The notes beneath the pieces were generated by a model. The model worked only from the letters and a program-made list of their open reading frames with translations. It did no database searches and had not been told where the DNA came from. A DNA stretch of 64,000 bases from a virus, in IMG/VR virus record IMGVR_UViG_3300045988_125079, positions 1-64,000 of that record; one strand, given 5' to 3'. Made by a program: the position numbers and the translations under genes. Of this stretch, positions 33,428 to 64,000 are shown one piece after another. Position 1 is the first letter of the stretch, and each line of letters begins with the position of its first letter.

Positions 33428-33432
33428 GTAAT

Positions 33433-34290: not shown

Positions 34291-34350
34291 GAAGAATTTG
34301 AGTCAATTACGTGTTGGCCCTCAGGACAACTCCTCCTCTTGACTCGATGT

Positions 34351-34420
34351 TTTTGAATATCGGAATCGAACCGACAAGACAGATTTTATGTCTGCGCCTT
34401 AACCATTTGGCTAATTCAAA
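34351..34420 (-). tRNA. tRNA-like element with non-canonical anticodon loop
   Basis: Acceptor UUUGAAU/AUUCAAA and T-arm GUCGG-UUCGAUU-CCGAU. The best anticodon hairpin is AGACA-UAAAAUC-UGUCU, which lacks U33. The variable region is almost absent. Confidence 0.35.
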
Positions 34421-34598
34421 ACCCAAGTATTGTTAGAATATATTTATACTTGATCTTCATATAGGCTTATCAGGCCGCTTTTATATGTGACTATTTGCTT
34501 CTTTATTTATTTGATTTCACTCTAGCGCCGCCGTCATTGGCAAAGAGCGAACAATTACAGTTTGTCGTTTTCAATAAACAGTGAATATGTATCAATGA

Positions 34599-35240
34599 TT
34601 AGTATTCGATTGTGATTTCGGTAGTTGCATTAGATTCAGATAAAACCGCGTCAACCTCAGCTTTGAAACTATTGATTTCGTCGGCCAGATTTTCCTTAGT
34701 TTTTTTAATGTTAATACCGTCAATCAGAATCATAGTTTCGCGCTCAATGTAACCATCTCGCATATCGCGAATTGCATCAGGAGACATCCCGTCTTTGTCG
34801 GCGGGGTTATTGCTTCGAATGACAAAATCATCCGCACGATCACTCAGGCGAGAATTCGTAGTTTCAATTACACTGACTGCATTGGAATACTGTCGCTCCA
34901 TCTGATTAAGCAGATCACTCAAGAAGTCGATTCCGTGCTGATTCATCCAAATAATTTGAGCGATAGTGTAGTCCTTACCGCATACAGTGCGATGGGTAAC
35001 AGCGTTAGACTCGGAGATAGCGCGCTTAATAGCATTCAGGCGAGCAATTAGGTCTTTGATTTTATCCAGTGAACTCTGACCATTTGCCTTATACTCTTCA
35101 ATGGTGACACCACCAAGCTTCTTCATGCTCTGCTTAGCAGCTCCGCAGAAAACAGCTTCACGAGTCAGCTTAGAAATCCGGTCTTCCAAAACGTTAATTT
35201 CAGCCAGTGCACGATGAATTGTCATAGTTTCAGTAGTCAT
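34599..35240 (-). CDS. hypothetical protein (coiled-coil rich)
   Basis: 213-aa ORF flanked by tRNA genes. AAAGGAGAA RBS. No family recognised. Confidence 0.55.
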   Translation of the reverse strand: MTTETMTIHRALAEINVLEDRISKLTREAVFCGAAKQSMKKLGGVTIEEYKANGQSSLDKIKDLIARLNAIKRAISESNAVTHRTVCGKDYTIAQIIWMNQHGIDFLSDLLNQMERQYSNAVSVIETTNSRLSDRADDFVIRSNNPADKDGMSPDAIRDMRDGYIERETMILIDGINIKKTKENLADEINSFKAEVDAVLSESNATTEITIEY

Positions 35241-35292
35241 AGTCGTTCTCCTTTAAAATATATAATCTTTAATGCGGTAGCCCGCTATTCAA

Positions 35293-35368
35293 TGGTGCTG
35301 GGGGTGGGGCACGATCCCACAACCTGAAAATTACAAATTTCCTGCGCTACCAATTACGCCACTCCAGC
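35293..35368 (-). tRNA. tRNA-Thr (anticodon UGU), CCA encoded, atypical T-loop
   Basis: Hand fold. Acceptor GCUGGAG/CCCCAGC (one A-C mismatch), anticodon loop UUUGUAA, T-arm GUGGG-AUCGUGC-CCCAC. Confidence 0.7.
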
Positions 35369-46594: not shown

Positions 46595-47794
46595 TTAATT
46601 GTATTTCCAAATATATCCACCTGCTGATTTTTGTTTTCCTTTACAGCAGTTATAAATATTCGAGTGTTTGATGTTGTAATAGTTCGCAGCATCCGTCATA
46701 CTGCCCCATTCTTTAATTAAATTTCCAGTTTTATCATATTGGAGTACCTTTCGCTTTCCGCCGATATGCTCTTCTTTGCTTTTCGCAAACGCCACAACGT
46801 CATCAACGTCAAGTCCGTCCTCGTCATAAGCCCAAGCGTATCCTTTTGCCATATAAGCTTTCCGGTTACAGCACTCAGAAATTGCTCCATCACTTCCATT
46901 TACGGCTATAGCAGCTTCTGTTATTGTGTCATACCGCGCAACAATTTCTTTAGAATTCACATCTATTTGACAGACTTTTGCCCGATATCGTTTGTGTTTA
47001 TGAACACGCATTTCTTTTTCATGATATTCGTATTTATCAATACATTCTTCATTGAGCATTTGTTGGTAGAATTTTTGAAATATTTCTTCGATACGATTAA
47101 AATGAGTGTATTTAATATAAAGGATTGGAATTTTATGTTCTTCGCAATAATCGGATTTTATTTTGTCCAATCGTTTTCGTTCTTCAAGATTCTTTTCTTT
47201 TTGCTCTTTACATTCACCATTGAATGTAAATGGGTAATAATGCTGTTCGCCTTGTAATTCTACAAGAAACAGTAACTTTTTACTCTCATGGTGAAATATC
47301 GCGAAGTCAAAAGGTAAAGCTCTTGTATCTATACAATCAGCAAATTTATATTGCTGAATATATAAGATATTATTTTCAGACAGATATTGTTGCAGAATAT
47401 ATTCTGCTTTTGAAGAAACACAGCCGCATGATATTGTTTGCCCTGTAGTTAAAGCAGATATTGATACATAAGCGTATCTCCCACAGTCACATTCACATGT
47501 CCATATGGTTCTTTTTCCCGGTTTTCGTACAGGGCATAAAGCCACTAATTTACCAAAACGCTGACCAGTAACATCAACAAACTTAATCTTTGATGTGTTC
47601 TCACTTTGAAAACATCCACATGATCGTGTATGTCCAGATTTTAAATGTGTGCCGGCAACGACAACTTCGTTTCCACAATCGCATTTACAAATCCAATGTG
47701 GTTTATGTTGACCAGACGGTGTTATTCTGTCTTCTGCAGGTCCTATAACTGTTAATCGACCAAATTTTTGACCTGTTAAATCCTCCCTACTCAT
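46595..47794 (-). CDS. homing-endonuclease-like protein (Zn-binding repeats + PD-(D/E)XK-like core + NUMOD1-like repeats)
   Basis: Two full G(Q)(K/R)FG(R/K)L(T/V)V...W.C.CDCG...SCGC repeats plus a third SCGC Cys-motif. FDFAIF...VELQGEQHY. Two C-terminal modules EAA..N......I..CC..K...A.GY.W.Y. Confidence 0.5.
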   Translation of the reverse strand: MSREDLTGQKFGRLTVIGPAEDRITPSGQHKPHWICKCDCGNEVVVAGTHLKSGHTRSCGCFQSENTSKIKFVDVTGQRFGKLVALCPVRKPGKRTIWTCECDCGRYAYVSISALTTGQTISCGCVSSKAEYILQQYLSENNILYIQQYKFADCIDTRALPFDFAIFHHESKKLLFLVELQGEQHYYPFTFNGECKEQKEKNLEERKRLDKIKSDYCEEHKIPILYIKYTHFNRIEEIFQKFYQQMLNEECIDKYEYHEKEMRVHKHKRYRAKVCQIDVNSKEIVARYDTITEAAIAVNGSDGAISECCNRKAYMAKGYAWAYDEDGLDVDDVVAFAKSKEEHIGGKRKVLQYDKTGNLIKEWGSMTDAANYYNIKHSNIYNCCKGKQKSAGGYIWKYN

Positions 47795-49065: not shown

Positions 49066-49278
49066 TCACCTCCGATTCAACTCTTTGATTCCAAAATATT
49101 GCGCTCCTCGTTGACTACGCAAATTAAACTGCTCAAGCTCTGGGGTCCATACAACCACATCCATCTCATCAAAAGCCCCTGCATGAATTAACTTCAGAGC
49201 TTCTTTTCTATCGCATTTGCGAATAACTTTTCCATCGTACCAAAAGCGAATTAAGTTATCAGTGGGTTTATAAATCAT
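49066..49278 (-). CDS. hypothetical protein
   Basis: ATG at 49278 shares one nt with the NAMPT stop (TGATG). Confidence 0.4.
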   Translation of the reverse strand: MIYKPTDNLIRFWYDGKVIRKCDRKEALKLIHAGAFDEMDVVVWTPELEQFNLRSQRGAQYFGIKELNRR

Positions 49279-50756
49279 CAAAACTTTCCTTCCCACAGTC
49301 GATCGCGAACTTCTTTCAGACTGTACTCTTTTACCATCTCGCCATTACGGAATACAGTCTGCAACAGGTTGCCGTCGGAATGAGCAGCGTGATCCATCAA
49401 GCCATCTGTATAGGTCAGTTTTCCAGAATCATCCTTGGTGACATAGCACATACCCTTCAGACTCTTCTTAAAGTGATCAGTGTCGGTTTTGGGGTCTTTG
49501 AAGATTTGAATCTCCTTGCCATTGACCACTCCATAAGTTGCCTTAACTGCCATGCCAAAAGTATCGCGGGTAAACGGCTTCAACTGACCATTCTGCTCGA
49601 TGCACTGCATGGAAAAAGAACCAACACCGAGACTGACATTATTGCAGGCGAAGCCGTGTGCTTTGAGTTCGGCATAAATCTTTTCACAGCGCTGCACAGT
49701 AATCGAATCCCCGTATAGTGCCTTCACATGCGGGTCGAGCACCTTGTAGCCCTTACTGTTGACTGTGCCACCGAAGATATCCCACAGATGGTAAACAGTC
49801 TGCGTGACGATTTCTACCGGATCACCAGAGTCGCCACGAATCAGCAGCGTGCCATTGTGCGCCATAATCTCGTCTTTGAGCTGGGGTAGGATATTATCGA
49901 CCAGATTCCAATAGTCGTAGGAATCAGATACCATACTGAAGCTCATATTGGGATACAGCTCAGTCAGCGCCCGGCGGATGAAAGTGATCTCGTCTCCATC
50001 GACAGCGAAGTTAGAACACATCACACTATGCTCGGTGCTAATAGCGCCAAACGCAACGGGCTCCTTAGTGCAATCACAGCGATACATTTCTTCCAGATAC
50101 GGAATCGCAGGAACAGTGGCCGTATTCAAAAAGCTCAGACACCACCCAGCGCTGGATTTGACAGCAGACTGCATACACTCCTGACCACGGAAACTGAAAT
50201 CGCCCAGAGCACGAGCATGAGGCACGCCATCCTCCACGGTTTCATCGTAATATTTGTCCACGATATCGCGGTACAGGGTGCCGACCGTTGCAGAAATCAT
50301 CGGATGCCACAGCTCAGAGCTCATAAAGGATTCGAGGAACTGCGGAACCCATGCGAAATCAGGATGCGTATTGCTCATCTCAAGGAACGGCACATGAATC
50401 GGGCAGCGAGTGCCCTCGGGCAGTGCTTTGATCTCGACAGGAAGATAGCCCAGGTCATGCAGGGCAGCAATCTTATCGATATCATAAGCGTCTTTGCCAA
50501 TGGTTGCGTCCAGGACACGCTGATAATTTGAGACAACCCACTCCTTTGGGAAATCAAAAAACCAACGTTTAAAATAATTCTGCAGATAATTCTTGCAGAA
50601 CGCCTGAACACCAAACACGACGACTTCATCCACGCCATCCAGACGGCTCATACGAGGAGTAAAGTAACTGACCAGCTTGGTAGTGCCAGCCGGGAACTGC
50701 TTACTGTGAGTTGTCTTGTAGAAGTCACACAACAGCATCGGGTTAATATTGATCAT
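49278..50756 (-). CDS. nadV: nicotinamide phosphoribosyltransferase family (NadV/NAMPT-like; could be a NARP1 Namat-type enzyme)
   Basis: N-terminus NPMLLCDFYKTTH, 492 aa, type-II PRTase pattern throughout. Confidence 0.85.
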   Translation of the reverse strand: MININPMLLCDFYKTTHSKQFPAGTTKLVSYFTPRMSRLDGVDEVVVFGVQAFCKNYLQNYFKRWFFDFPKEWVVSNYQRVLDATIGKDAYDIDKIAALHDLGYLPVEIKALPEGTRCPIHVPFLEMSNTHPDFAWVPQFLESFMSSELWHPMISATVGTLYRDIVDKYYDETVEDGVPHARALGDFSFRGQECMQSAVKSSAGWCLSFLNTATVPAIPYLEEMYRCDCTKEPVAFGAISTEHSVMCSNFAVDGDEITFIRRALTELYPNMSFSMVSDSYDYWNLVDNILPQLKDEIMAHNGTLLIRGDSGDPVEIVTQTVYHLWDIFGGTVNSKGYKVLDPHVKALYGDSITVQRCEKIYAELKAHGFACNNVSLGVGSFSMQCIEQNGQLKPFTRDTFGMAVKATYGVVNGKEIQIFKDPKTDTDHFKKSLKGMCYVTKDDSGKLTYTDGLMDHAAHSDGNLLQTVFRNGEMVKEYSLKEVRDRLWEGKF

Positions 50757-54575: not shown

Positions 54576-56645
54576 TTAAATCACCACTTTCAGAACTCGC
54601 TCAGTAGCTCCCTGCACCTTGACAATGAAGGAGTCATGCTTTGTCTCAGAGAAACCAACGCCAGACAGCTGGTCATCGACAGACTGGACCGCCATCTGAG
54701 AACCGAGAGCTTCAAACACCCGCTTATGCTGCAGAAGTTCTGCTTTCAGAAATTCGTTGTAGAATCCGTTCGGCTTTTCAGGGTTGACACAATCCTTCAG
54801 CATAAAGAAGTAGTGACGGTTGCCGTTTCCGGTCTGCTCGTCCCAGTAGTTTGGAGAGTACATGGCCACAGAAACAGGAACGAACTGGTTGGAATTCACA
54901 CTCCAGATTTCGCGGGTGCTGGTAGAACTGGGCAGCTGCTCCTTGATAGAGAACTTGCCATCCTTCAGCGTGACCTTTGCCACGGCGACATTCTGACCCT
55001 GATGCAGCGGCTTATCGTAGTTAAACGAGTAGATGTTGCCATCGAACTCGATCTCAGCACGGAAACCGGTTTTTCCGCCACGACCAGCGAAACAATGAAC
55101 ATAGAAACTGTATTCGCCCTCCTTCATCTTTTTGATATCAGGCCAGGTGATGTTCTCGACTGCGACACGATTACGACCAGGCTGCATGATGTCAACATCC
55201 AGAACACCGCCCGTAGTGTAATTACGTTTTGCGCCAAAATAGATGTGGTTCTTATCGGGTTCAATGCAATGAGCATCCTCATCGTTTTCGTCCCACTCGC
55301 ACGACATATCATTCCACTGAATAGAGAAACGCAGAACGCCGTCGATTTTACCGCCAGCATTTTTGACGTTCTCCCGGATCTGGCTGTCAGTCACGTTACC
55401 CGTATATGCCCAACTAAAACCGTTCGCCCACTTGAACATAGATGGCGCAGCCTTATCCTGCGGCGCAATCAGAGACACCATATTCTTCTCGAAACGATTC
55501 TCCATGAACAGTTCCAGCCCAGTCGCAGTCGGAAGCACGTCCTTGATGAACTTGTCGATGCCGATTTCCTCTGCACGACCAAACTTCTTAGGATCAATCG
55601 CAACAGTCTTAGCCATTGCTTCAAACGGATTTGTAGCACCAGCAATACGAGGAGCAGCGTCACGATTACAGAACAGGATATTGTTGGCAGTGATATCGTC
55701 CAGAGTAGCAAACCGACGACCCAGACTGTTCATATAACCCAGCTCAGTGACGGTTTTCTGTGCATCCTCCAGCATCTTCTTGGTGAAAATCGCCTTGGGA
55801 CGCTTATAGTTAGCTGGTGCAACCACCTTTTCAAAAGCAGTCACAGCAGAATCCACATCCATACCTTCACTCAGATTAATAAGCAGAGTACCGATTGCAG
55901 TGTTACGAATACGAAGCTGTCCCATATCGCCCCATGCCGGTGCCAGCCAAACATAAGCGGCCTTGTTCTCAGCCGGAGTATTGTCATATTCAATCTTGTT
56001 AGTCTTAAATACCTTGACGGCGTTTTCAAATTCCTTACCGCGATACAAACTATTCTGTGCAATCAGCTCCAGAACAGTATCAACAGCATCCATGGTCAGT
56101 TCTTCCAGAGAACGCTTGTATACGTTTGCGGAATCACGCCACTGAGCCATCTTGGTAGCCACATCATCAGGCCGCACAACGAAACGCTGCGGAATCTTGA
56201 CTGCGAAATGATCCCAAGTACGCACATCCTTGTGGTTTTCATCGTACTCATAGTTCATCTCGGTGCCGAACATATTACCAGAACCGATCATATTGCGACT
56301 GACAAAGTACGGATTCACAATAGTGCGGCTCTTCACATAAGCATCCAGAGCGTCCACAACAGGCTGATACTTGGCAGACTTTGCATCGAAATTCCACACA
56401 GTAATCATTTTTCCATCATCAAACGCCACCAGCTTGCCGATATTCTTCACAAAACGGCGGCAGCAGGAACAATCATACTCACGGCGCTTACGGAACAGCT
56501 CATTCATACCGGCCGGGAAGCTGTCAAGATACAGATTGTACAGTTCATCCTCGTCTGCATCGGTGATAAACAGTGGATTCTCACCCTTCACCATCTCATT
56601 GAAGTGGTCCTGCAGAAGTGCGCGAAATTCCTTAAAATCAGACAT
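54576..56645 (-). CDS. large hypothetical protein (689 aa), compositionally G/C-shifted
   Basis: Uninterrupted 689-aa ORF. N-terminal REYDCSCCRRF motif. No family recognised. The antisense strand is also stop-free, which I read as a codon-bias artefact. Confidence 0.6.
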   Translation of the reverse strand: MSDFKEFRALLQDHFNEMVKGENPLFITDADEDELYNLYLDSFPAGMNELFRKRREYDCSCCRRFVKNIGKLVAFDDGKMITVWNFDAKSAKYQPVVDALDAYVKSRTIVNPYFVSRNMIGSGNMFGTEMNYEYDENHKDVRTWDHFAVKIPQRFVVRPDDVATKMAQWRDSANVYKRSLEELTMDAVDTVLELIAQNSLYRGKEFENAVKVFKTNKIEYDNTPAENKAAYVWLAPAWGDMGQLRIRNTAIGTLLINLSEGMDVDSAVTAFEKVVAPANYKRPKAIFTKKMLEDAQKTVTELGYMNSLGRRFATLDDITANNILFCNRDAAPRIAGATNPFEAMAKTVAIDPKKFGRAEEIGIDKFIKDVLPTATGLELFMENRFEKNMVSLIAPQDKAAPSMFKWANGFSWAYTGNVTDSQIRENVKNAGGKIDGVLRFSIQWNDMSCEWDENDEDAHCIEPDKNHIYFGAKRNYTTGGVLDVDIMQPGRNRVAVENITWPDIKKMKEGEYSFYVHCFAGRGGKTGFRAEIEFDGNIYSFNYDKPLHQGQNVAVAKVTLKDGKFSIKEQLPSSTSTREIWSVNSNQFVPVSVAMYSPNYWDEQTGNGNRHYFFMLKDCVNPEKPNGFYNEFLKAELLQHKRVFEALGSQMAVQSVDDQLSGVGFSETKHDSFIVKVQGATERVLKVVI

Positions 56646-56943: not shown

Positions 56944-57210
56944 TCATAATAATGACTTGCATCTAAACTGATGAGTTATTTTTTCAAACATTTCATCGCA
57001 CCAGAGCCAATTACACTCTTTTATTTTATACGATCCAAAAGATGAAATATGGTCAATATGAACTAATTTCCCACGCATTGCCATCATCTCTTCAATAACA
57101 TAATCGCTTTCCTGTTCAGCATATGGCCCAGATTTCATACAATAAAGATGACCCATACTTAAATCTTTACGGACACGAACTGTATCTCCAGGCTTATATA
57201 GATAATCCAT
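56944..57210 (-). CDS. CxSLL-tail SH3-like small protein, paralog 4
   Basis: MDYLYKPGDTVRV ... WLWCDEMF ... CKSLL-stop. AGGAG RBS. Confidence 0.7.
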   Translation of the reverse strand: MDYLYKPGDTVRVRKDLSMGHLYCMKSGPYAEQESDYVIEEMMAMRGKLVHIDHISSFGSYKIKECNWLWCDEMFEKITHQFRCKSLL

Positions 57211-57221
57211 ATTTTCACTCC

Positions 57222-57482
57222 TCACAAGAGAGACTTACATACAATTCGACCCTCCGGTTCAAACATTTCATCTGTCCAATGCCAATTAATTTCGTTTAAG
57301 AGATATTGACCGCATGAAAATCCCTTGATATGGACAAACTGACCACGGAATTTCATCATATCGTCATTGGTGCTATTTGAACCATACTTGTAATCAGGGC
57401 CAGATTTCATACGGTACGATTGTTTGGTACTCAAATCGGCTCGAACCCGAACTCTCTGTCCAACTTTATATTTGTAATCCAT
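57222..57482 (-). CDS. CxSLL-tail SH3-like small protein, paralog 5
   Basis: MDYKYKVGQRVRV ... WHWTDEMF ... CKSLL-stop. Confidence 0.7.
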   Translation of the reverse strand: MDYKYKVGQRVRVRADLSTKQSYRMKSGPDYKYGSNSTNDDMMKFRGQFVHIKGFSCGQYLLNEINWHWTDEMFEPEGRIVCKSLL

Positions 57483-57490
57483 ATTTCACC

Positions 57491-57763
57491 TCAAAGAAGA
57501 GACTTGCATGTAAGTGGCGTTAACGGTTCAAACATTTCATCGACGAAATAATTGCACTTACCATCTTCGATGATCTTGTACTTTCCATTTGCTTTATGAG
57601 AAATATGAACTATCTTTCCTGCCCAATTTGTTCTAATGCTGTATGTAGCGTAAGTGCTTGCATATCCTGGACCAGACTGCATTTGATATACATGTCCACC
57701 TTCAAGATGCTGCTTTACTTTAACAGCCTGTCCATTCCTGTATTTATATTTACTTTTCGACAT
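57491..57763 (-). CDS. CxSLL-tail SH3-like small protein, paralog 6
   Basis: KYKYRNGQAVKV ... YFVDEMF ... CKSLL-stop. Confidence 0.7.
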   Translation of the reverse strand: MSKSKYKYRNGQAVKVKQHLEGGHVYQMQSGPGYASTYATYSIRTNWAGKIVHISHKANGKYKIIEDGKCNYFVDEMFEPLTPLTCKSLL

Positions 57764-57879: not shown

Positions 57880-58686
57880 TCATTCTCCATCAAACCAATC
57901 AGAAACTCGATCCGACATCCTGTCCATCTTTTCCTGTGCAGCCTTACAATACCTCATTGTGATTCTTTCATCGCTATGATTCAATTTCATCTGGAGAAGC
58001 TGCAGAGTATTTCCTTCGTCTTGAGTCCCCTCTGCACTCTTTAGCGCTGCCATTGCATATGTTTTTCGCATTGTATGTGTAGACAATTCAATATCAAGGC
58101 CGCACATTTTACCGGCATTTTTCAGGATACCATATATCGATCGAACATTAAGCGAACCGCCCTTCTGGCTCTGGAATAAAAACACATCTCGTGAGACTTC
58201 AAAATGCTGCTCGTCGTAATATTCTTTCAAAACTTCGGCAGCCATTTTAGGAATTTTACAGATATTTCGCTTTCCTGTTTTCTGCTCAAAAACATCAAGA
58301 TGGCTCTTTACTTTACCATTTAGTGTATAAACATCTTCCGTCTTTAGTTTTACAAGATCGCTGCAACGAAGACCGACAGAACAACCAAGAATGAACAGCG
58401 TTTTATTCCTGATTCTATATCCGACCTTACCGTTTTTACCAAGATAATCTACTACTTTTTTGAACTCCTCTTTAGATTGAATCGGACTAGCCGGAGTCGG
58501 CTTCTTTCGTCCATCGCAAGTGTAAAGACTTGTTGTTTTCGTCTTCTTTTGTTTTTTTCGAGCAGCTGTTACGGCGTCACGAATCATCTGCTGCAATTCA
58601 TCTTCAGATAACGTAATATGAGCTTCGTCAGAAGAATTAGGAAATATAATCAGCTTATCTTTTTCTTTTACCGCTGCTTCTGCCAT
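57880..58686 (-). CDS. tyrosine recombinase, catalytic domain only (no core-binding domain)
   Basis: GLRCSDL (Arg), HTMRKTY (HxxR), LNHSDERITMRY (His/Tyr). 268 aa with a Lys-rich N-terminal tail. Confidence 0.8.
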   Translation of the reverse strand: MAEAAVKEKDKLIIFPNSSDEAHITLSEDELQQMIRDAVTAARKKQKKTKTTSLYTCDGRKKPTPASPIQSKEEFKKVVDYLGKNGKVGYRIRNKTLFILGCSVGLRCSDLVKLKTEDVYTLNGKVKSHLDVFEQKTGKRNICKIPKMAAEVLKEYYDEQHFEVSRDVFLFQSQKGGSLNVRSIYGILKNAGKMCGLDIELSTHTMRKTYAMAALKSAEGTQDEGNTLQLLQMKLNHSDERITMRYCKAAQEKMDRMSDRVSDWFDGE

Positions 58687-58713
58687 ATTGTAGCCTCCTT
58701 ATATGTGTTACAT

Positions 58714-58968
58714 TTACAGCAAACTTCGACACGAAAACGGTGCAGCACCTTCAAGCATTCCGTCCGACCAGAGATAGTTTCCATCATCTATATCGAGAAT
58801 ATAAAATCCACTTTTGTATCCTACGATTTTAGTAGTCATCCCTTCATAACTCGACATATGTAAACCAAGTCCGCAGTAATTCCCAGGACACGGTCCAGAT
58901 ACCATTGGAAGATTTTTTACCGGAGATTCTATTTTGACTTTTTGTCCAATTTTATATTTGTAATTCAT
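58714..58968 (-). CDS. CxSLL-tail SH3-like small protein, paralog 7
   Basis: MNYKYKIGQKVKI ... YLWSDGML ... CRSLL-stop. Confidence 0.65.
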   Translation of the reverse strand: MNYKYKIGQKVKIESPVKNLPMVSGPCPGNYCGLGLHMSSYEGMTTKIVGYKSGFYILDIDDGNYLWSDGMLEGAAPFSCRSLL

Positions 58969-59039
58969 ACTATACCTTTCTTTCACACTCTCTTCTAATT
59001 GGTTGGAGGCCAGAGAGGAGTTCAAAGCGAGAGGATTTA

Positions 59040-59270
59040 ATTTGATTGGCGAAGCGATAAATTAAATACGAACGATTTGAATCCGCGCGTCCGCCGAAGG
59101 ATCAAGGGCGACTCCAGCTTCGCTGGGTCGCCTGCGATCCGCAGGTCGGACCTGGCTGAATGCCAATGCGGGTGGAAGATCCCCGATGCGCTCCTCCCGG
59201 AGGGCGAGCGAGGGGATCGACATGCCTTACCATTATCTCAACAGTTGGAATCTCCAGCTGCCTAAATTTC
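59040..59270 (-). ncRNA. GC-rich hairpin-dense non-coding block 3' of the RT cassette
   Basis: No minus-strand ORF. Perfect stems: CCUGCG-GAU-CGCAGG (59131-59145), GGCGAC/CCAGC-GAA-GCUGG/GUCGCC (59107-59132), GAUCCCC...GGGGAUC (59178-59218). Confidence 0.4.
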
Positions 59271-59299
59271 ATTTAGTATTCAAGAGAGATCAAACAGTT

Positions 59300-59662
59300 T
59301 TACTTTTCAACAATAGAATCCGAATCATCTATTTCTTCTGACTCTTCATCGAGAGCGTCATCTAGTTCCAATAAATACTGATTCAAGGCGTCTCGGCCAG
59401 CCTCAAGCATTGCTCGATGGATTTCAGGTTCTGCATCCTTTAAAAGATCCCCACAAAGTGCAAGATCCTCAGCTTCAAACCCCGTAGATTCCATATCCTT
59501 GATGGCATCCGCGACATCTGAAGGGGCCCAAAATACCATAGCACGATGTTCGTCTTCATCGAGGACTTCAACATCGTCATTTACCACTGCTCTCACATAA
59601 TCAGCGACATTTTCAAGCAGCTCAGGTGGCACAGAACCGTCACGACACATAATTTCAATCAT
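59300..59662 (-). CDS. highly acidic 120-aa protein
   Basis: AAGGAGG RBS. ATG at 59662 lies 13 nt after the RT stop. About 37 D/E versus 8 K/R by hand count. Confidence 0.55.
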   Translation of the reverse strand: MIEIMCRDGSVPPELLENVADYVRAVVNDDVEVLDEDEHRAMVFWAPSDVADAIKDMESTGFEAEDLALCGDLLKDAEPEIHRAMLEAGRDALNQYLLELDDALDEESEEIDDSDSIVEK

Positions 59663-59675
59663 AAATCCTCCTTTG

Positions 59676-60908
59676 TTATGCGGCATCTTTTGGACGAAGA
59701 TCGTCTTTAATCATAGCCATCACATCAACATGGTATTTGTTGTTGGCTTTTGAAATCAACGCTTTGATTTTGTCTTTTTCTACCATTTTATAATAGCTGA
59801 TAAGACCATTAAGCTCCTGAACGTCTTCAATTGTCCAAGGAGCATTTTCCTTTTTACAGCGGATATAGTTGGACATCATAATCTTGAATGTCTTGATGTT
59901 ACGCCATCCAACCGTGATTTCATTGTTCTGATTCCACATCAAGCCGAGCACCCAGTTTTTACTCGAATGACGATTGCCGTAATGAGTTTTTTCTTCATTC
60001 AGAGTAAATGGAGCATGGATATACGCCAGAATATTTTTGATTACATCCTGCATCTCCATATAGTCAAAACTCAAATAACAACTAATCGTGATATCATCCG
60101 CATATCTTGTATAAGTAAAATCACGAGTAATGCCATCTTTCATTTTGAAACCATGACGAATTTTTCGACTCAGCAAATGATCAAATGGAATCATCATGAC
60201 ATTCGTAAGCCAAGGACTCAAGGGGCTTCCCTGCGGTAATCCATTGCGAAGAAAAGCAATCTTTAATGCATCACTCAACGCTTCATGGCCGCCGAATGGA
60301 TCTTGCATGATAAGAGCGAACGGATAAATCACACTCAACATTCCCATAACAAACTCTGGATTAGAGCTGGGGAAAAATCCGTGAAAGTCGAATTTTACAG
60401 ACCAGTTATTTTCATAAATAACCTGCTCTTTTTCTCCTGTTGTCGGGTTCGTTTTAGTCCGCACATGCCCTTCCTGATGTTTTTTCACAGCAGTCAAAGT
60501 AGACCGATGCGGAACATAAGCATGTGCCGCAGTATGATAGTCTGCAAGCATAAAGCTTTTTAACAACGTTTGCAGTTCGTTCAATGCGTCACTAAGGATT
60601 TTGTCTGGAGCATCAATTGGCCGCATGCCACCTGTTTTTTTGGGAATTTCATAGTGAGTATAGTGAACAGACATATCCGGTTCAGATTCGAGCTGTTCGT
60701 ATTTCTTATTAAACGCTTCGAGTTCTCGAATCATTCGGTTAATATCTGTCATGGCTCTCAAACGTGGGGTAAGTTCGTCTCTACAAACAGTCACAGTCGA
60801 AGTAACATCTTCTCGATATTTCAATTTCTCAGACTCGATAATGCCTGCAAGAATCTCATCGATTGTGATCTGTCTCGTTTTAGGGGCTGCTTTGTATGTA
60901 ATATACAT
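59676..60908 (-). CDS. stand-alone reverse transcriptase (retron/UG-DRT-like size and motifs)
   Basis: IPKKTGGMRPIDAP, KFDFHGFFPS, GLPQGSPLSPWLTN, RYADDITIS, LNEEKT, VLGL. 410 aa with no extra nuclease or maturase domain visible. Confidence 0.9.
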   Translation of the reverse strand: MYITYKAAPKTRQITIDEILAGIIESEKLKYREDVTSTVTVCRDELTPRLRAMTDINRMIRELEAFNKKYEQLESEPDMSVHYTHYEIPKKTGGMRPIDAPDKILSDALNELQTLLKSFMLADYHTAAHAYVPHRSTLTAVKKHQEGHVRTKTNPTTGEKEQVIYENNWSVKFDFHGFFPSSNPEFVMGMLSVIYPFALIMQDPFGGHEALSDALKIAFLRNGLPQGSPLSPWLTNVMMIPFDHLLSRKIRHGFKMKDGITRDFTYTRYADDITISCYLSFDYMEMQDVIKNILAYIHAPFTLNEEKTHYGNRHSSKNWVLGLMWNQNNEITVGWRNIKTFKIMMSNYIRCKKENAPWTIEDVQELNGLISYYKMVEKDKIKALISKANNKYHVDVMAMIKDDLRPKDAA

Positions 60909-60929
60909 ATTATCTTCCTCTTATCGTGA

Positions 60930-61165
60930 TCTAAATAGGTCTCAGCTCATTCCAAGCCTGATCGCAGTGCGGATCTTGACTATGTTGTTGAGCGATACAT
61001 CGTAAAATTTCACCCTGCAGTGACGCTGATGACGTCGACTACCTGGAGGATGGCCGTTGCCTCCGCGGTACCTCCATGGCCATCGGCGGCTCGCGGGGCA
61101 CCTCCCTCGTTCTACCTTTGCGAACCAATCGGATCTCCGGTTGGACTGTGGTTAACAGTAATTCA
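60930..61165 (-). ncRNA. GC-rich structured leader upstream of the RT (candidate RT-associated ncRNA)
   Basis: About 235 nt between the E1 stop and the RT RBS with no minus-strand ORF. GAUGGCC/GGCCAUC (61049-55 / 61078-84). Competing GGAGG/CCUCC pairings (61044-49, 61061-65, 61071-76). GAUC-CGC-ACU-GCG-AUC hairpin (60960-60975). Confidence 0.45.
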
Positions 61166-61185
61166 TCACGATTTTATTTCAAATT

Positions 61186-61860
61186 TTAACTTGCAATAAC
61201 ACTATGCTGATAAGGATCAACAACAATCATCTTGTTGACTTTATTCTTCCCCATAGCAAATCCGATGAAATTCGTAACAGCCTGACAGCAGATTTCACGA
61301 ACTGTCGGAGCAAGTCCCTGAACAACGCCACATGCAGAAACGGGCGTACTTGCCGTGGCTTCTTCGTGAGTGAAATCCATAGAATTTTTGAGATTTTCCT
61401 TCATGGATTCATCCATCCAATCAGCCGCCCAACACTGAGCGTCGTAAAGACCGGTTCGGATATCAAACACGCCCTTAATATTGGGATTATATTTGTTCTT
61501 CTCCATGAAATCTTTTCGAATTTCAATGTTGTCAACAGCCAGGAAAACATATCCCTGAACCTGTTCACCATGCCAACCATTGGGTTTGATGATGATATCG
61601 TCCTTCGCGTCAGGATTAATCATGCAGATGAGATTTGCAACAGCTTCAACCTTCGGATGACCAATATCCTGCTGGAAAAACATTTGGTTCACGATATTCT
61701 TCGATTCAACGATGTCCATATCCCAAAGCGTAAAATTAGTGAGGCCGTATCGAGCCAACAGCTCAGCCACAGTCGAACCAACAGAACCACAGCCAATGAT
61801 ATGCACCTGGCCACGAATTTCTTTAGGATTGAAAATCATCTCAATCTTGCTCAGATTCAT
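61186..61860 (-). CDS. ThiF/MoeB/E1-like adenylyltransferase (minimal, 224 aa)
   Basis: VHIIGCGSVGSTVAELLARYGL..FTLWDMDIVESKNIVNQ...DIGHPKVEAV gives a GxGxxG Rossmann fold plus the Asp and Arg/Lys pattern of E1-like enzymes. Confidence 0.8.
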   Translation of the reverse strand: MNLSKIEMIFNPKEIRGQVHIIGCGSVGSTVAELLARYGLTNFTLWDMDIVESKNIVNQMFFQQDIGHPKVEAVANLICMINPDAKDDIIIKPNGWHGEQVQGYVFLAVDNIEIRKDFMEKNKYNPNIKGVFDIRTGLYDAQCWAADWMDESMKENLKNSMDFTHEEATASTPVSACGVVQGLAPTVREICCQAVTNFIGFAMGKNKVNKMIVVDPYQHSVIAS

Positions 61861-61877
61861 TTGTTTATCCTTTCTTT

Positions 61878-62840
61878 TTAATCCTGAAATGCATCAATGT
61901 CGTTATAATACGGCCAGCAACTCGAATTACCGACTGCTTCCAATTCTTCAGGATGCTCTTCGTAATACTTGGCGAGATTGCTTTTTGCCGGCACTTTCGG
62001 AGCGGCGCTGCCAGTTACCGTCTTCTTCGACTCTTCTTTTTTTGTCCCGACCAACGGGGTTTTCGGGTACGTAACGGTGGAGCCGTATACCTTACTTGCA
62101 CCCGCGCCTCCTGCAGAATATCCTCCATTGCTTCCAATTGCGTTTGCGCTGTAATTGGTATTTCCGGTCCAATTCCCTGTCGCGCCATATACAGGTGTTG
62201 TGGCAATTTTGTTCTTAACAATCTGGTCTGCGTTTTCGAGAAATCGAGAAGAATCAAAATCACCAACGGTGACATTCACATCCTCTCCTTCATAGATAAC
62301 GTTTGCCTTCAGATCAATAACCCGAACATTATACTCACGCCGCTTGTTCCAAATCATAAAGATTTCATAGCTATCCATCGGCATAGTATCAACGAAACGC
62401 CACTGGTCTTCCATATCTGTAGCACTCGGGGTGACTCCCATATTGACATGAGAATGACCTTGAAAATGCAGACTGTTAAAATCCTCATCGGGCAGCTTCG
62501 CGTACCACATAGAATACTCTCCCCAATCGGTATTCACGGTCGCTCCCGTGACAGTCTGGGGATAAAGCAGAATCTTAGTAATCTGAAAGTGAGTATCATC
62601 GATTCGATTCACCGTGCCACACCACGCGACTTCGGACGAGAAGTGGTTAATCAGAGCGAACATCTGATGATATGCTTCGTAGGTGAAATTCACTGTGATT
62701 GCATTCTTCTGCTTTACTGCAGGAAATTCTGCGCTATATGTAAACTTATCACTGCGGATATAATTCATAGCCATCAGCTGTTCATAAAGCTTCTGTGCTG
62801 CGTTCTTTGCGTACTCCTGTGAAATCTTAATCGGCTTCAT
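61878..62840 (-). CDS. JAB/MPN (JAMM) metallopeptidase with G/S/T/Y-rich C-terminal extension
   Basis: Upstream Glu (SSEVAWCG) and GHSHVNMGVTPSATD, which is HxHx7Sx2D. Confidence 0.8.
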   Translation of the reverse strand: MKPIKISQEYAKNAAQKLYEQLMAMNYIRSDKFTYSAEFPAVKQKNAITVNFTYEAYHQMFALINHFSSEVAWCGTVNRIDDTHFQITKILLYPQTVTGATVNTDWGEYSMWYAKLPDEDFNSLHFQGHSHVNMGVTPSATDMEDQWRFVDTMPMDSYEIFMIWNKRREYNVRVIDLKANVIYEGEDVNVTVGDFDSSRFLENADQIVKNKIATTPVYGATGNWTGNTNYSANAIGSNGGYSAGGAGASKVYGSTVTYPKTPLVGTKKEESKKTVTGSAAPKVPAKSNLAKYYEEHPEELEAVGNSSCWPYYNDIDAFQD

Positions 62841-62854
62841 TTATATCTCCCCTT

Positions 62855-64000
62855 TCAAGCAGCCGCCGTTTCCTTTTCTTTCTTTAAGATTTCGAACACC
62901 TCTGCGACTGTATAAAGATTACCAGCATCGTCCTCAAGATATTTCTTGGTAGAAATGGTTCGTTCATTGAACAGATCATGCATCAATTCGGAAACCACCG
63001 TAGAATCACCCCAGTTCAGGTAAGAACTGGAGCAGATAATAGTAGTAAGAGTCCCAATGAAATCATGATTCTGAGATAACGATTCAAAGGTCGCTTCATA
63101 GCCACCGTAGCAAGCATGGCGATCAATGTGCGGCTGACGGATACGATTTTCCATCATCTCCGGATGATCTTCCATATCACACTGAGTGACAACACGAACA
63201 CGATCATCAGAATTCACGCGCCATTCACAATATGTGCGGATCTTAAAGCGATGTTCTTTCCAAATAGCGCAGAAGAATTCTTTCGTTTCCTCAAAAGAGT
63301 ACGGGCTCTTCTGATAGATGTAGTTTCGTGCATCCCGTTTGTTCTCGACACTGTGCCGGAAAGCGCCTTCATCACAGTCATTCAAAAAGCCGGTGTAACC
63401 AACATACAGGTTGTCATCGCTCTTTCGGAGAAAGCTCAGAACTTTATTCGCTTTCAGATAATTTACAATAGCTGCCTCGTCTTCGTCTGTACAGCAAGCA
63501 CGATTACGAATTGCTTCAAGACGAATCTGCGCATCGTCCAGCTTGCTCCGATACTGGCGAATCTGATCGAAAGTATCCGTGATCCGACGTTCATAGCTGC
63601 GGATTTCTTCTTCTCCGCGACTAATAATCGAGTCATAATTGGCACTGCAGAATCCCTTCAGGCTTGCAGCCAATTTCTTTCCATAGAAATCGCCAGCGTC
63701 ATAGATCTTCTGCATGGCATCGCAGAACTTGGCATCCTCTTGATTGTATAAAAACTGGATAATGGCCTTTTCTTCTTCTGTAATCGGCACTTTCTTAAAG
63801 CACCAAGGAGTCAGACGGGGAAAACAACTCGCCGCCATATGCATAGCCTGCATAATTTTTTGACGGCCAACAAAGATGATAGTTCCCTTCTTTTTCTCAT
63901 TCTGGTAAACCGTTACATCACCAGCCTTATCAATGTACTGTGAGACATCATCAAGTTTCTTCCAGCCGAGCTTCTTATAATCCTCGTTATATTCTTCGCT
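62855..64000 (-). CDS. hypothetical protein, ORF open to the window edge (5' partial)
   Basis: The frame of 62855..63853 continues without a stop through 64000 (…GDVTVYQNEKKKGTIIFVGRQKIMQAMH…). No family recognised. Confidence 0.5.
   Translation of the reverse strand, partial: SEEYNEDYKKLGWKKLDDVSQYIDKAGDVTVYQNEKKKGTIIFVGRQKIMQAMHMAASCFPRLTPWCFKKVPITEEEKAIIQFLYNQEDAKFCDAMQKIYDAGDFYGKKLAASLKGFCSANYDSIISRGEEEIRSYERRITDTFDQIRQYRSKLDDAQIRLEAIRNRACCTDEDEAAIVNYLKANKVLSFLRKSDDNLYVGYTGFLNDCDEGAFRHSVENKRDARNYIYQKSPYSFEETKEFFCAIWKEHRFKIRTYCEWRVNSDDRVRVVTQCDMEDHPEMMENRIRQPHIDRHACYGGYEATFESLSQNHDFIGTLTTIICSSSYLNWGDSTVVSELMHDLFNERTISTKKYLEDDAGNLYTVAEVFEILKKEKETAAA

What the first reader, a model, noticed from the sequence alone, without database searches (positions are those of the whole stretch)
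59676..61185. Stand-alone reverse transcriptase with a ~235-nt GC-rich structured leader (retron/DRT-like layout) carried by a phage
- **RT motifs.** The 410-aa ORF has complete RT motifs: IPKKTGGMRPIDAP, FDFHGFFPS, LPQGSPLSPWLTN and YADD. I see no maturase, endonuclease or DGR-type (I/LGxxxSQ) signature.
- **Upstream leader.** On the same strand, 60930-61165 contains no ORF and is visibly richer in G/C than the flanking genes. It can be drawn into several strong helices. These include GAUGGCC/GGCCAUC and at least three mutually exclusive GGAGG/CCUCC pairings.
- **Known parallels.** A non-coding RNA immediately 5' of a small RT is the organisation of retrons (msr-msd) and of DRT2/DRT9-type defence RTs.
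- **What does not fit.** Here the cassette sits in a phage accessory region. It is followed by an acidic protein and a second structured block, and preceded by an E1/JAB pair. I cannot match that combination to any described class.
Basis: partly seen in the sequence, partly recalled or inferred. Interest (0 to 1): 0.8.

Follow-up and report, generated by a model that had tools for sequence, protein, structure and literature searches.

The report
Phage retron with two template RNAs
A family of large gut phages carries a retron-type reverse transcriptase flanked by two template RNAs (three or four in some relatives) whose copied parts evolve unusually fast, a layout I could not find described for retrons.

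Summary
ORF 59676-60908 (-) is an intact reverse transcriptase whose best matches in PADLOC, NCBIfam and the PDB are all retron RTs, though below every curated family cut-off.

- **The leader is a retron-style ncRNA.** It has an 8-bp a1/a2 inverted repeat (61172-61165 / 60930-60923), an invariant G right after a1 (61164), and two covarying stem-loops.
- **The "second structured block" is a second ncRNA of the same design** (59291-58988). It lies downstream of the acidic protein gene.
- **A covariance model of the msr core finds exactly these two sites in 64 kb.** It finds two per locus in all 12 relatives tested with at least 60% RT identity.
- **More distant lineages (38-44% RT identity) carry two to four units.**
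- **The a1/a2 helix covaries.** Seven base pairs hold in 20 of 20 units, with 2-4 pair types per position.
- **The templated parts evolve fast.** msd1 diverges by 22%, against 11.5% at four-fold sites of the RT gene. msd2 keeps long hairpins through compensatory changes.

No known retron effector is present. A Ubl/JAB/E1 cassette is always immediately upstream. DRT2, DGR and group II intron readings fail. Function is inferred only: probably phage counter-defence or phage-phage competition acting through the msDNAs. I file it as a new variant of retrons.

The parts
60923..61172 (-). ncRNA1 (msr1-msd1), from the first base of a1 to the last base of a2; 250 nt
   Evidence: An a1...G / TTAG...a2 pattern scan finds it with 0 mismatches. 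The msr-core covariance model hits 61174-61116 at 57.6 bits, E 1.5e-9. It is present upstream of the RT in all of L001-L069.
61165..61172 (-). a1 of ncRNA1 (ATCGTGAT)
   Evidence: It pairs with a2 in the MFE fold. Helix positions 1-7 are canonical pairs in 20/20 units from 10 lineages, with 2-4 pair types per position.
61164..61164 (-). Invariant G immediately 3' of a1: predicted branching G (2'-OH primer) of ncRNA1
   Evidence: It is the only invariant column in the 20-unit alignment and is G in 20/20 units. Its role as a primer is inferred from retron biology.
61145..61159 (-). msr1 stem-loop SL1 (ACUGU-UAACC-ACAGU)
   Evidence: Present in the MFE fold. All 4 pairs of this helix show changes on both sides, and 94% of cells are paired.
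61126..61143 (-). msr1 stem-loop SL2 (CAA-C-CGG-AGAU-CCG-A-UUG), the probable RT recognition hairpin
   Evidence: Present in the MFE fold and supported by covariation. The SL2 sequence is shared between the units of one phage in several lineages: 15-24 nt identical in L003, L070 and L075.
60931..61115 (-). msd1: predicted reverse-transcribed template. GC-rich, hypervariable and weakly structured. Its 3' end is the conserved TTTAG just before a2.
   Evidence: It is 58% identical to L001 at 61000-61100, where the flanks are 96-100%. Diversity peaks at 0.27 against a background of 0.02-0.06. Mean pairwise identity is 0.778 against 0.954 for the RT gene. Mean fold z-score is -0.4. The boundary with msr is approximate.
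60923..60930 (-). a2 of ncRNA1 (ATCACGAT). It ends 14 nt before the RT start codon, with the RBS in between.
59676..60908 (-). Retron-type reverse transcriptase, 410 aa
   Evidence: Pfam RVT_1. Best PADLOC hits are RT_II-A 1.3e-38, RT_XIII and RT_I-A. NCBIfam retron_St85_RT scores 149 bits, below its cut-off of 235. The top 12 PDB hits are all retron RTs. The thumb motif VLG aligns to the retron VTG.
59300..59662 (-). Acidic 120-aa protein (MIEIMCRDG...). An upstream in-frame ATG at 59686 overlaps the RT stop.
   Evidence: Only 9 homologues were found, all 105-124 aa. The AF2 model has pLDDT 81 and no fold match in the PDB or BFVD. It was not seen in the RT 38-44% lineages examined, so it is not part of the conserved core.
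58988..59291 (-). ncRNA2 (msr2-msd2): a second retron-style unit. a1' is 59290-59282, the predicted branching G is 59281, SL1' is 59276-59262, SL2' is 59260-59242, msd2 is about 59231-58995, and a2' is 58994-58988.
   Evidence: Recognised. The pattern scan finds it. The covariance model hits 59291-59232 at 42.9 bits, E 1.5e-6. a1'/a2' covary between lineages: TCTCTCTT, ATCTCTTTT, ATCACTTT and ATCATTTT, each with its complement. The msd2 mean fold z-score is -4.1. 17 pairs keep pairing through changes on both sides.
61186..61860 (-). ThiF/E1-like adenylyltransferase: the last gene of a conserved upstream Ubl/JAB/E1 cassette. Association only; no function shown.
   Evidence: Pfam ThiF 3.4e-20. 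The RT lies about 300-400 nt downstream of the E1 in 80/80 of the best E1 relatives in IMG/VR. The E1-RT order (with one inserted ORF in L079) is kept in lineages with 38-44% RT identity.
61878..62840 (-). 320-aa protein with a JAMM/JAB-type metal motif. Association only.
   Evidence: The motif EVAWCG...HSHVNMGVTPSATD is read in the translation. There is no HMM or PDB hit.

Best explanation
This is a phage-borne retron-type retroelement in which one reverse transcriptase serves two separate template RNAs.

**Shown by sequence and comparison.** ncRNA1 lies in front of the RT gene and ncRNA2 lies behind the acidic-protein gene. Each has:
- an a1/a2 inverted repeat closing the RNA;
- an invariant G right after a1;
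- two msr stem-loops;
- a GC-rich central segment ending in UUAG just before a2.

**Inferred from how characterised retrons work.** The RT docks on the msr hairpins; SL2 is the likely specificity element. It uses the 2'-OH of the invariant G as primer. It copies the RNA from the base 5' of a2 back towards the msr. The products are two different branched RNA-DNA molecules (msDNAs):
- msDNA-1, from a fast-evolving, poorly structured template;
- msDNA-2, from a template that keeps long hairpins.

**Function (inference only).** No toxin-like retron effector is present. The RT-plus-several-ncRNAs core is what is conserved across very divergent lytic-type gut phages. The templated parts are the fastest-evolving DNA in the neighbourhood. 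I therefore think the msDNAs themselves are the working product in a conflict with host immunity or with competing mobile elements. Most likely they act as abundant nucleic-acid decoys or binders for host sensors or nucleases. The upstream Ubl/JAB/E1 cassette and, in this lineage, the acidic protein may be partners.

**How the confidence splits.** I put about 0.9 on the anatomy (a retron-type RT with two retron-style ncRNAs), about 0.7 on one RT making two msDNAs, and about 0.35 on the decoy or counter-defence role. The single figure given is for the statement as a whole.
For: **RT identity.** All best matches are retron RTs, and the catalytic residues are invariant in the family.

**ncRNA anatomy.**
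- In the a1/a2 helix, positions 1-7 are paired in 20/20 units with 2-4 pair types each, and the following G is invariant.
- For SL1/SL2, 85% of cells are paired against 26-40% in slid controls. The covariation score is 0.656 against at most 0.134, and 0/500 shuffles reach it.

**Two units per RT.**
- The covariance model finds exactly two sites in the 64-kb window (E 1.5e-9 and 1.5e-6; the next best is E 1.4). Both are on the RT strand.
- It finds two per locus in all 12 relatives tested with at least 60% RT identity.
- There are 2 units in L070, L153 and L083, and 3 full units plus 1 partial in L075-L078.

**Same RT for all units.** SL2 is identical or nearly so among the units of one phage in L003, L070 and L075 (15-24 nt). 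L153 shares only a 13-nt post-SL2 linker; its SL2 is similar, not identical. SL2 differs between lineages.

**Fast-evolving templates.**
- Mean pairwise identity among 39 close phages: RT 0.954, msr1 0.958, msd1 0.778, msd2 0.897.
- Divergence at RT four-fold sites is 0.115.
- msd2 is structured (mean z -4.1, 21/22 below -1.64), with compensatory changes.

**No known effector.** PADLOC, Pfam, PHROGs and NCBIfam find none next to the RT.

**Long-term retention.** The RT occurs in contigs that are mostly 70-150 kb, with replication and NAD-salvage genes.
Against: - No msDNA has been observed; reverse transcription and branching are inferred.
- msd1 does not form the stable hairpin typical of retron msd (mean z -0.4).
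- The RT scores below the curated cut-off of every named retron family. It also deviates at two motifs I recall as retron hallmarks: AVKKH where Ec83 has NAKIH, and VLG for VTG.
- Characterised retrons are defence systems with a toxic effector. None is recognisable here, so the decoy or counter-defence role has no direct support.
- Fast msd evolution could be a mutational by-product rather than selection.
- No sigma-70-like promoter was found in front of either ncRNA, so the transcription units are unknown.
- Conserved linkage to the E1 cassette could reflect common descent of related phages rather than function.
Confidence: 0.55

Rival explanations
1. It is a classical tripartite retron used by the phage as an abortive-infection or superinfection-exclusion system. 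The msDNA-RT complex holds an unrecognised effector in check until a competing phage or satellite is sensed. The effector would be the acidic protein or the Ubl/JAB/E1 cassette products.
For: - All characterised retrons work this way (abstracts listed; Mestre et al., PMC7736814).
- The acidic gene is apparently translationally coupled to the RT.
- The E1 cassette sits next to the RT in 80/80 of the best E1 relatives, and the link holds at 38% RT identity.
- Retrons often ride on prophages (PMC7736814).
Against: - The acidic protein was not seen in the RT 38-44% lineages examined, and no known toxin fold matches it.
- No PADLOC effector model hits any neighbour.
- The carrier looks like a large lytic-type phage with its own replication machinery, for which killing its own host cell has no obvious benefit.
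- Two to four templates per RT is not a feature of known tripartite retrons in the literature I could search.
Confidence: 0.25
2. The msDNAs are recombination donors. The phage uses retron-made single-stranded DNA to rewrite or diversify DNA, either its own msd loci or target genes elsewhere. This would be a natural counterpart of retron recombineering, or a DGR-like process without adenine mutagenesis.
For: - msd1 diverges about twice as fast as the RT gene's four-fold sites.
- Its length changes by more than 100 nt between close relatives.
- Hypervariable small paralogous genes and a tyrosine recombinase lie just downstream.
Against: - Neither ncRNA has any similarity to the rest of the 64-kb window (blastn-short, word 7).
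- An adenine-wildcard pattern of msd1 matches only its own site in IMG/VR.
- Variability within msd1 is patchy, with conserved islands, rather than uniform over the presumed cDNA.
- The recombinase and the small paralogs were not seen downstream of the RT in the L070, L075, L079 and MAG loci examined.
Confidence: 0.1
3. It is a DRT2- or DRT9-like defence RT, whose ncRNA is copied into concatemeric or homopolymeric cDNA rather than msDNA.
Against: - NCBIfam Drt2 scores 40 bits against a cut-off of 390, and Drt3a 25 against 200. Retron models score 90-149 bits.
- The top PADLOC hits shown are all retron-type RT models.
- No reading frame stays open across ncRNA1 variants.
- The a1/a2 plus G architecture is the retron one.
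Confidence: 0.03
4. It is a degenerate group II intron or a DGR reverse transcriptase with its template repeat.
For: RVT_1 RTs in phages are most often DGR RTs. The group II RT/maturase model gives a weak hit of 75 bits.
Against: - The group II model's cut-off is 300 bits.
- Rfam finds no intron domains in 58500-61700, even at E up to 10.
- No DGR RT appears among the PDB hits.
- No TR/VR pair exists in the window or in IMG/VR for the pattern tested.
Confidence: 0.02

Closest known systems
Bacterial retrons (msr-msd-RT; for example Retron-Eco1/Ec86, Ec78, Ec83; the 13 types of Mestre et al. 2020, PMC7736814)
   Same: - The RT belongs to the same clade by every profile and PDB comparison.
- The ncRNA is closed by a1/a2 inverted repeats, with a G right after a1.
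- The msr stem-loops are lineage-specific.
- The ncRNA sits directly upstream of the RT gene.
- msd2 has long hairpins.
   Different: - There are two to four ncRNA units per RT instead of one.
- No recognisable effector is present, and none of the 13 types has Ubl/JAB/E1 neighbours.
- The carrier is a large phage, about 120-150 kb, with its own replication module, not a bacterial defence island.
- msd1 is unstructured and hypervariable.
- The RT is about 90 aa longer, with an N-terminal extension and a finger insertion. It scores below the family cut-offs.
Engineered retron arrays ('multitrons'; PMC10370050)
   Same: One retron RT reverse-transcribes several msd templates arranged in an array.
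   Different: Those arrays are laboratory constructs for multiplexed editing. Here the arrangement is natural, each unit has its own a1/a2 pair, and the purpose is unknown. I read only the title, the abstract and a term search of that paper.
Retron-like RTs noted in other large phages (Staphylococcus jumbo phages MarsHill/Madawaska/Machias, gp206; bioRxiv 10.1101/2020.12.14.422802)
   Same: A retron-type RT domain encoded by a large lytic phage, with no DGR features and unknown function.
   Different: That protein is 501 aa with a roughly 200-aa N-terminal domain. The passages I read describe no ncRNA. No sequence comparison was made here.
DRT2 / DRT9 defence reverse transcriptases
   Same: A small RT plus an adjacent structured ncRNA, with no separate effector gene.
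   Different: The RT clade is different. The ncRNA has the retron a1/a2-G design, and there is no conserved open frame.
Diversity-generating retroelements of phages
   Same: Phage-borne RT, with localised hypervariability in near-identical genomes.
   Different: No TR/VR pair was found, and the RT is not of DGR type. I did not search specifically for an Avd gene. The hypervariable DNA is the template itself.

Membership tests
Retron | RT belongs to the retron clade of prokaryotic RTs | tested here: met
   - Best PADLOC models: RT_II-A 131 bits, RT_XIII 125, RT_I-A 103.
- NCBIfam best hit is retron_St85_RT at 149 bits, below its cut-off of 235.
- The top 12 PDB hits are retron RTs.

It is in the clade but in no curated sub-family.
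Retron | ncRNA flanked by inverted repeats a1/a2 next to the RT gene | tested here: met
   The helix has 7-12 bp. Positions 1-7 are canonical pairs in 20/20 units from 10 lineages, with 2-4 pair types per position.
Retron | Conserved guanosine at the 3' end of a1 (the branching G) | tested here: met
   G is invariant in 20/20 units. Its use as a 2'-OH primer cannot be tested here.
Retron | msr stem-loops that co-evolve with the RT | tested here: met
   SL1/SL2 covariation: 85% of cells paired against 26-40% in slid controls, and 0/500 shuffles reach the score. SL2 is shared among the units of one phage in several lineages.
Retron | msd forms a stable stem-loop | tested here: inconclusive
   msd2 does: mean z -4.1, and 17 pairs with compensatory changes. 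msd1 does not: mean z -0.4, and little covariation.
Retron | Production of multicopy branched RNA-DNA (msDNA) | not testable with these tools
   Needs nucleic-acid gels or cDNA sequencing.
Retron | Tripartite system with a cognate effector (types I-XIII) | tested here: not met
   No PADLOC, Pfam or NCBIfam effector is next to the RT. None of the 13 types has E1/JAB or this acidic protein (PMC7736814). An unrecognised effector cannot be excluded.
Retron | One ncRNA per RT (the implicit architecture of described retrons) | tested here: not met
   There are two units in the window and 2-4 in relatives.
DRT2 (UG2) | RT matches the Drt2 family; the ncRNA template yields an open frame when concatenated | tested here: not met
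   Drt2 scores 40 bits against a cut-off of 390. No frame is consistently open in ncRNA1. Concatenated frames were not tested explicitly.
Diversity-generating retroelement | TR/VR repeat pair differing at adenines; DGR-type RT | tested here: not met
   No repeat of either ncRNA occurs in the window. The A-to-N pattern finds only itself in IMG/VR. No DGR RT is among the best matches. The rest of the phage genome outside the window could not be read.
Group II intron | Ribozyme domains I-VI around an RT/maturase | tested here: not met
   Rfam finds no intron match in 58500-61700 at E up to 10. The group II RT/maturase model scores 75 bits against a cut-off of 300.

The most novel reading that the evidence does not exclude
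The phages carry a natural, expandable array of retron templates (2-4 units, each with its own a1/a2 'address' but a shared RT-docking hairpin). The fast-changing msd segments would be a library of single-stranded DNA effectors, acting as decoys, aptamers or guides against host immunity or rival elements, and working together with the always-adjacent ubiquitin-like conjugation cassette. That would be a phage offensive use of retrons, mechanistically distinct from the toxin-antitoxin logic of all characterised retrons.
Probability: 0.25. Interest if true: 0.9.

Novelty: new variant of a known kind. Interest (0 to 1): 0.78.

Why it matters
**Biology.** As far as I could find, retrons are described as bacterial defence systems with one RT, one ncRNA and a toxic effector. 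Here a retron-type RT is kept over long evolutionary distances (38-100% identity) by abundant large gut phages. It has several templates per enzyme, no recognisable toxin, and templated DNA that is the fastest-evolving sequence in its neighbourhood. If the msDNAs are made, retrons are also a phage tool, which raises the question of what single-stranded DNA does for a virus.

**Technology.** Each unit has a distinct a1/a2 pair, and in several lineages the units share one RT-recognition hairpin. This is the design principle of engineered multiplexed retron editors. These phages therefore offer tested-by-nature parts: compact ncRNA scaffolds tolerant of very different inserts of about 150-230 nt.

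**Open link.** The strict linkage to a Ubl/JAB/E1 cassette is a further, untested connection between two conflict systems.

Tried and rejected
- **Rfam.** An E-value search of 58500-61700 gave only four chance-level hits. The gathering-threshold search of the whole window gave tRNAs only.
- **Close phage relatives.** Megablast of the locus against GenBank phages found nothing. tblastn of the RT found one unannotated faecal contig at 62% identity.
- **A shared fold for msd1.** RNAalifold and an all-against-all covariation scan on 37 close ncRNA1 sequences found only small local hairpins. The central part has no conserved structure.
- **Coding potential of ncRNA1.** No frame is consistently open.
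- **Template-target relation.** blastn-short of both ncRNAs against the window found only themselves. Two adenine-wildcard patterns against IMG/VR gave zero hits and self only.
- **The acidic protein.** No Pfam, PHROG, NCBIfam or PADLOC hit. The AF2 model (pLDDT 81) has no Foldseek match with E at or below 0.001 in the PDB or BFVD.
- **The JAB-like protein.** No PDB sequence hit.
- **Promoter and terminator scan.** Nothing above the shuffled expectation.
- **GATC enrichment in the ncRNAs.** About 2-3.5-fold, and partly due to a2 itself. Not pursued.
- **MAFFT alignment of units from all lineages.** It misaligned them, so the a1/a2 helix was scored on an anchored, ungapped register instead.
- **A second E1 query to reach E1 genes without an RT.** It returned only five loci and added nothing.
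- **One script timed out** and was rerun on a sample.
- **Literature.** Eight searches found no description of multi-ncRNA retrons or of this phage retron. The library lacks most subscription journals.
Full report
**What is at the coordinates**

It matches Pfam RVT_1 at 2.9e-16.

Its neighbours on the same strand are as follows.
- Upstream: a ThiF/E1 protein (61186-61860; ThiF 3.4e-20), a 320-aa protein, and a longer protein cut by the window end.
- Downstream: an acidic protein, a small ORF and a tyrosine recombinase.
- The 320-aa protein carries a JAMM-type motif, EVAWCG...HSHVNMGVTPSATD, but has no HMM or PDB hit.

Two GC-rich blocks stand out from a background of about 40% GC. One is at 61000-61149 (0.63-0.64) and the other at 59050-59249 (0.58-0.66).

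The window is the replication and nucleotide-metabolism part of a large phage. It holds a DNA polymerase, DnaB-like helicase, ligase, NrdD, NAMPT and a tRNA cluster. No close relative exists among GenBank phages. One unannotated faecal contig encodes a 62%-identical RT.

**What kind of RT**

- All top PADLOC models shown are retron-type RT models (RT_II-A 1.3e-38, RT_XIII 1.3e-36, RT_I-A 4.6e-30), out of 62 families matched.
- In NCBIfam the best model is retron_St85_RT, at 149 bits against a curated cut-off of 235. Group II RT/maturase scores 75 against 300, Drt2 40 against 390, and Drt3a 25 against 200.
- The 12 best PDB chains are all retron RTs (Ec83, Ec78, Ec86, Ec67, Kva2), followed by Cas6-RT-Cas1 and one unnamed RNA-directed DNA polymerase.
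- In those alignments the retron thumb triplet VTG aligns with VLG here. The NAKIH of Ec83 aligns with AVKKH. That these are retron hallmarks is my recollection, not a tool result.
- The catalytic Y-x-D-D and the finger and palm motifs are invariant in 19 homologues down to 41% identity.

The enzyme is therefore a probably active member of the retron clade, outside every curated sub-family. It has an N-terminal extension of about 75 aa and an insertion at 148-166.

**The leader is a retron-style ncRNA**

The MFE fold of 60909-61185 pairs AUCGUGAU (61172-61165) with AUCACGAU (60930-60923). As a single-sequence fold it is only marginally better than shuffles (z -1.8).

Comparative data decide the matter. 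IMG/VR holds 80 loci that encode relatives of the RT at 41-100% identity, on contigs that are mostly 70-150 kb. In the alignment of their upstream regions, AATCGTGAT-G-AAT and TTTAG-ATCACGAT are conserved down to about 60% RT identity. The segment between them is not.

**The second structured block is a second unit**

I extracted the intergenic DNA after the acidic gene from the relatives. It has the same design with a different repeat.
- In the window: GATCTCTCTT-G-AAT ... ATTAG-AAGAGAG.
- In other lineages: ATCTCTTTT/AAAAGAGAT, ATCACTTT/AAAGTGAT and ATCATTTT/AAAATGAT.

A simple scan looked for an 8-mer followed by G and, 120-420 nt later, TTAG followed by the 8-mer's reverse complement. On the minus strand of the window it finds these two sites plus two one-mismatch chance matches that lack the G-AAT/TTTAG-A context. 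It finds both units in all of L001-L069 but two, where a1 or the TTAG context deviates.

The true start of the next small gene is ATG 58968. ncRNA2 (59291-58988) is therefore intergenic.

**Statistics of the conserved structure**

*The a1/a2 helix.* I anchored 20 units from 10 lineages on the G and on the first base of a2, so no alignment choice is involved. Helix positions 1-7 are canonical pairs in 20/20 units, with 2-4 different pair types at each position. The G is invariant. a2 is preceded by AG in 19 of 20 units.

*The two stem-loops after the G.* These were scored on a 14-sequence MAFFT alignment.
- 85.4% of cells are paired, against 25.8-40.4% when the partner is slid by 1-3 columns.
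- The covariation score is 0.656, against at most 0.134 in the slid controls.
- 0 of 500 shuffles reach the observed score.
- All four SL1 pairs, and four of seven SL2 pairs, change on both sides.

*Covariance model.* A model of this msr core, run without filters, finds exactly two sites in the 64-kb window.
- 61174-61116: 57.6 bits, E 1.5e-9.
- 59291-59232: 42.9 bits, E 1.5e-6.
- The next hit has E 1.4.

The model finds two per locus in all 12 relatives tested with at least 60% RT identity. The window units were in the seed alignment, so their own scores are partly circular. The absence of further hits, and the hits in loci outside the seed (for example L001, L004, L031, L038, L081), are not.

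**More distant lineages**

| Lineage | RT identity | Units found |
|---|---|---|
| L070/L073 | 43-44% | 2, sharing a 24-nt SL2 |
| L153 group | about 42% | 2 |
| MAG contig L083 | 44% | 2, the second weakly detected |
| L079, L082 | 43-44% | at least 1 upstream |
| L075-L078 | 41-42% | 1 upstream plus 2 full units downstream, each with its own a1/a2, plus a 4th copy of the hairpins with almost no msd |

In L075-L078 all four copies carry the same CCGGTATTACCG hairpin on the RT strand.

The longest identical stretch between the msr regions of units from one phage is 15-24 nt in L003, L070 and L075. It is only 6-7 nt in the window, the L014-L022 group and L057, where only the shape and loop resemble each other. 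The average between major lineages is 6.3 nt.

The natural reading is one RT recognising a shared hairpin on several templates. That is an inference.

**How the parts evolve**

Against L001 (RT protein 100% identical), the window is 96-100% identical in the flanks. It is 58% identical at 61000-61100 and 76% at 59100-59200.

Mean pairwise identity among 39 close phages:

| Segment | Mean pairwise identity |
|---|---|
| E1 gene | 0.969 |
| msr1 | 0.958 |
| msd1 | 0.778 |
| RT gene | 0.954 |
| acidic gene | 0.957 |
| msr2 | 0.958 |
| msd2 | 0.897 |

- Four-fold degenerate sites of the RT gene differ by 0.115 on average.
- msd1 therefore diverges about twice as fast as nearby synonymous sites. Gaps count as differences, so this is an upper estimate.
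- msd2 diverges at about the synonymous rate.
- The msr parts evolve well below it.
- Nucleotide diversity peaks at 0.27 in msd1, against 0.02-0.06 around it.

msd2 is strongly structured. Its mean z-score against dinucleotide shuffles is -4.1, and 21 of 22 sequences fall below -1.64. In its consensus fold, 17 pairs keep pairing through changes on both sides.

msd1 is not structured (mean z -0.4). It shows only small local hairpins, and its length changes by over 100 nt between close relatives.

**What it is not**

- *Not protein-coding.* No frame is conserved in ncRNA1.
- *Not DRT2-like or DRT3-like,* by RT score.
- *Not a group II intron.* There is no ribozyme match, and the maturase score is low.
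- *Not a DGR, as far as could be tested.* Neither ncRNA resembles anything else in the window. An adenine-wildcard pattern of msd1 matches only its own site in IMG/VR. The part of the genome outside the window could not be inspected.

**Partners**

*The acidic protein.*
- It has only nine detectable homologues.
- It gives a confident but unmatched fold: pLDDT 81, with no Foldseek hit at E 0.001 or better.
- It was not seen in the RT 38-44% lineages examined, so it is not part of the conserved core.

*The upstream cassette.*
- The full gene order (about 130 aa, a roughly 80-aa protein, about 450-500 aa, the JAMM-motif protein, E1, ncRNA1, RT) is seen in the RT 38-44% lineages; the ~450-500 aa-JAB-E1-ncRNA1-RT part is seen in all lineages examined.
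- The roughly 80-aa protein gives a weak ubiquitin hit (E 0.0095, below cut-off).
- This order holds in MAG contigs assigned to Oscillospiraceae and Acutalibacteraceae at 38-44% RT identity.
- The RT follows the E1 in 80 of the 80 best E1 relatives in IMG/VR.
- This may be functional coupling or simply shared ancestry. I could not retrieve E1 relatives that lack the RT to tell the two apart.

**Comparison with the literature**

The classification of Mestre et al. defines 13 retron types by RT clade, ncRNA and effector. None has these neighbours (PMC7736814).

Eight full-text searches found no report of retrons with several ncRNAs, or of this phage family's retron. The nearest items are:
- a retron-like RT noted without an ncRNA in Staphylococcus jumbo phages;
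- engineered retron arrays for multiplex editing (PMC10370050).

The searchable library lacks most subscription journals, so absence of evidence is limited.

**Mechanism and confidence**

*Shown:* the RT clade, two retron-style ncRNAs with covarying a1/a2 and msr hairpins, multiplicity across lineages, differential evolution of msd1 and msd2, and the absence of known effectors.

*Inferred from established retron biochemistry:* priming from the 2'-OH of G61164 and G59281, copying from the base 5' of a2, and two msDNAs.

*Speculative:* the biological role. I favour a conflict function carried by the msDNAs themselves, as decoys or binders of host or rival factors. My reasons are that the only conserved core is the RT plus its templates, and that the templated DNA is where change is concentrated.

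The main rivals are:
- a classical effector-coupled exclusion system with an unrecognised effector;
- a recombination-donor role.

Hypervariability could also be a neutral by-product of RT-made DNA recombining back into its own gene.

**Verdict**

It is best filed as a new variant of retrons: phage-borne, multi-template, and without a known effector. Interest is high for retron biology and for retron engineering. Everything about function awaits an msDNA experiment.

Noticed in passing
window 32020-32095 (-), within the tRNA cluster 26319-35368: ARAGORN calls one of the 8-9 phage tRNA genes with anticodon CTA, which reads the amber codon. This hints at TAG suppression or recoding in part of the genome. 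The genes around the RT all end in TAA.
   Followed up: no
window 56944-57763 and 58714-58968 (-), flanking 57880-58686: Four paralogous genes of about 85-90 aa (M.YKYKxGDxVxV...DEMFE...C(K/R)SLL) flank a tyrosine recombinase. The centre of the copy at 58800-58900 is only 59-68% identical between phages that are 96-100% identical around it. Another lineage (the L153 group) has a different array of small paralogs at the same place after ncRNA2.
   Followed up: partly
window 61186-64000 (-) and loci L003, L070, L075, L082, L084, L171: A conserved cassette lies upstream of the retron: about 130 aa, about 80 aa (weak ubiquitin hit, E 0.0095), about 450-500 aa, a JAMM-motif protein, then the ThiF/E1. 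The ~500-aa gene runs off the window end.
   Followed up: partly
window 54576-56645 (-): The 689-aa protein (phrog_1735; DUF8224 in a relative) has local patches of only 64-66% identity (around 55300 and 56000) between otherwise near-identical phages.
   Followed up: no
L075-L078, about 6880-7000 in locus coordinates: A fourth copy of the SL1/SL2 hairpins has an a1/a2-like repeat but almost no msd between them. It looks like an 'empty' unit, and a tRNA-like sequence (read by eye, not run through ARAGORN) follows it.
   Followed up: partly
window 60923-61172 and 58988-59291: GATC occurs 8 times in the two ncRNAs, against 2.3 expected from the window-wide rate. Across 20 units the excess is about 1.7-fold, partly because a2 of ncRNA1 contains GATC.
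   Followed up: partly
window 49278-50756 (-); locus L171 18362-21326: A nicotinamide phosphoribosyltransferase gene is present. In a relative it is followed by Macro-domain and NAD-synthase genes. From my own knowledge, such an NAD-salvage set is linked to phage counter-defence.
   Followed up: no
window 46595-47794 (-): An HNH/homing-endonuclease-like gene sits inside the replication module.
   Followed up: no
L019, L031, L038 (RT +1216 to +1719 in L019): In some close relatives an extra 167-aa ORF (MAKPRKENMMIKQYKN...) is inserted between the RT and the acidic gene. The cassette content between the two ncRNAs is therefore variable.
   Followed up: no
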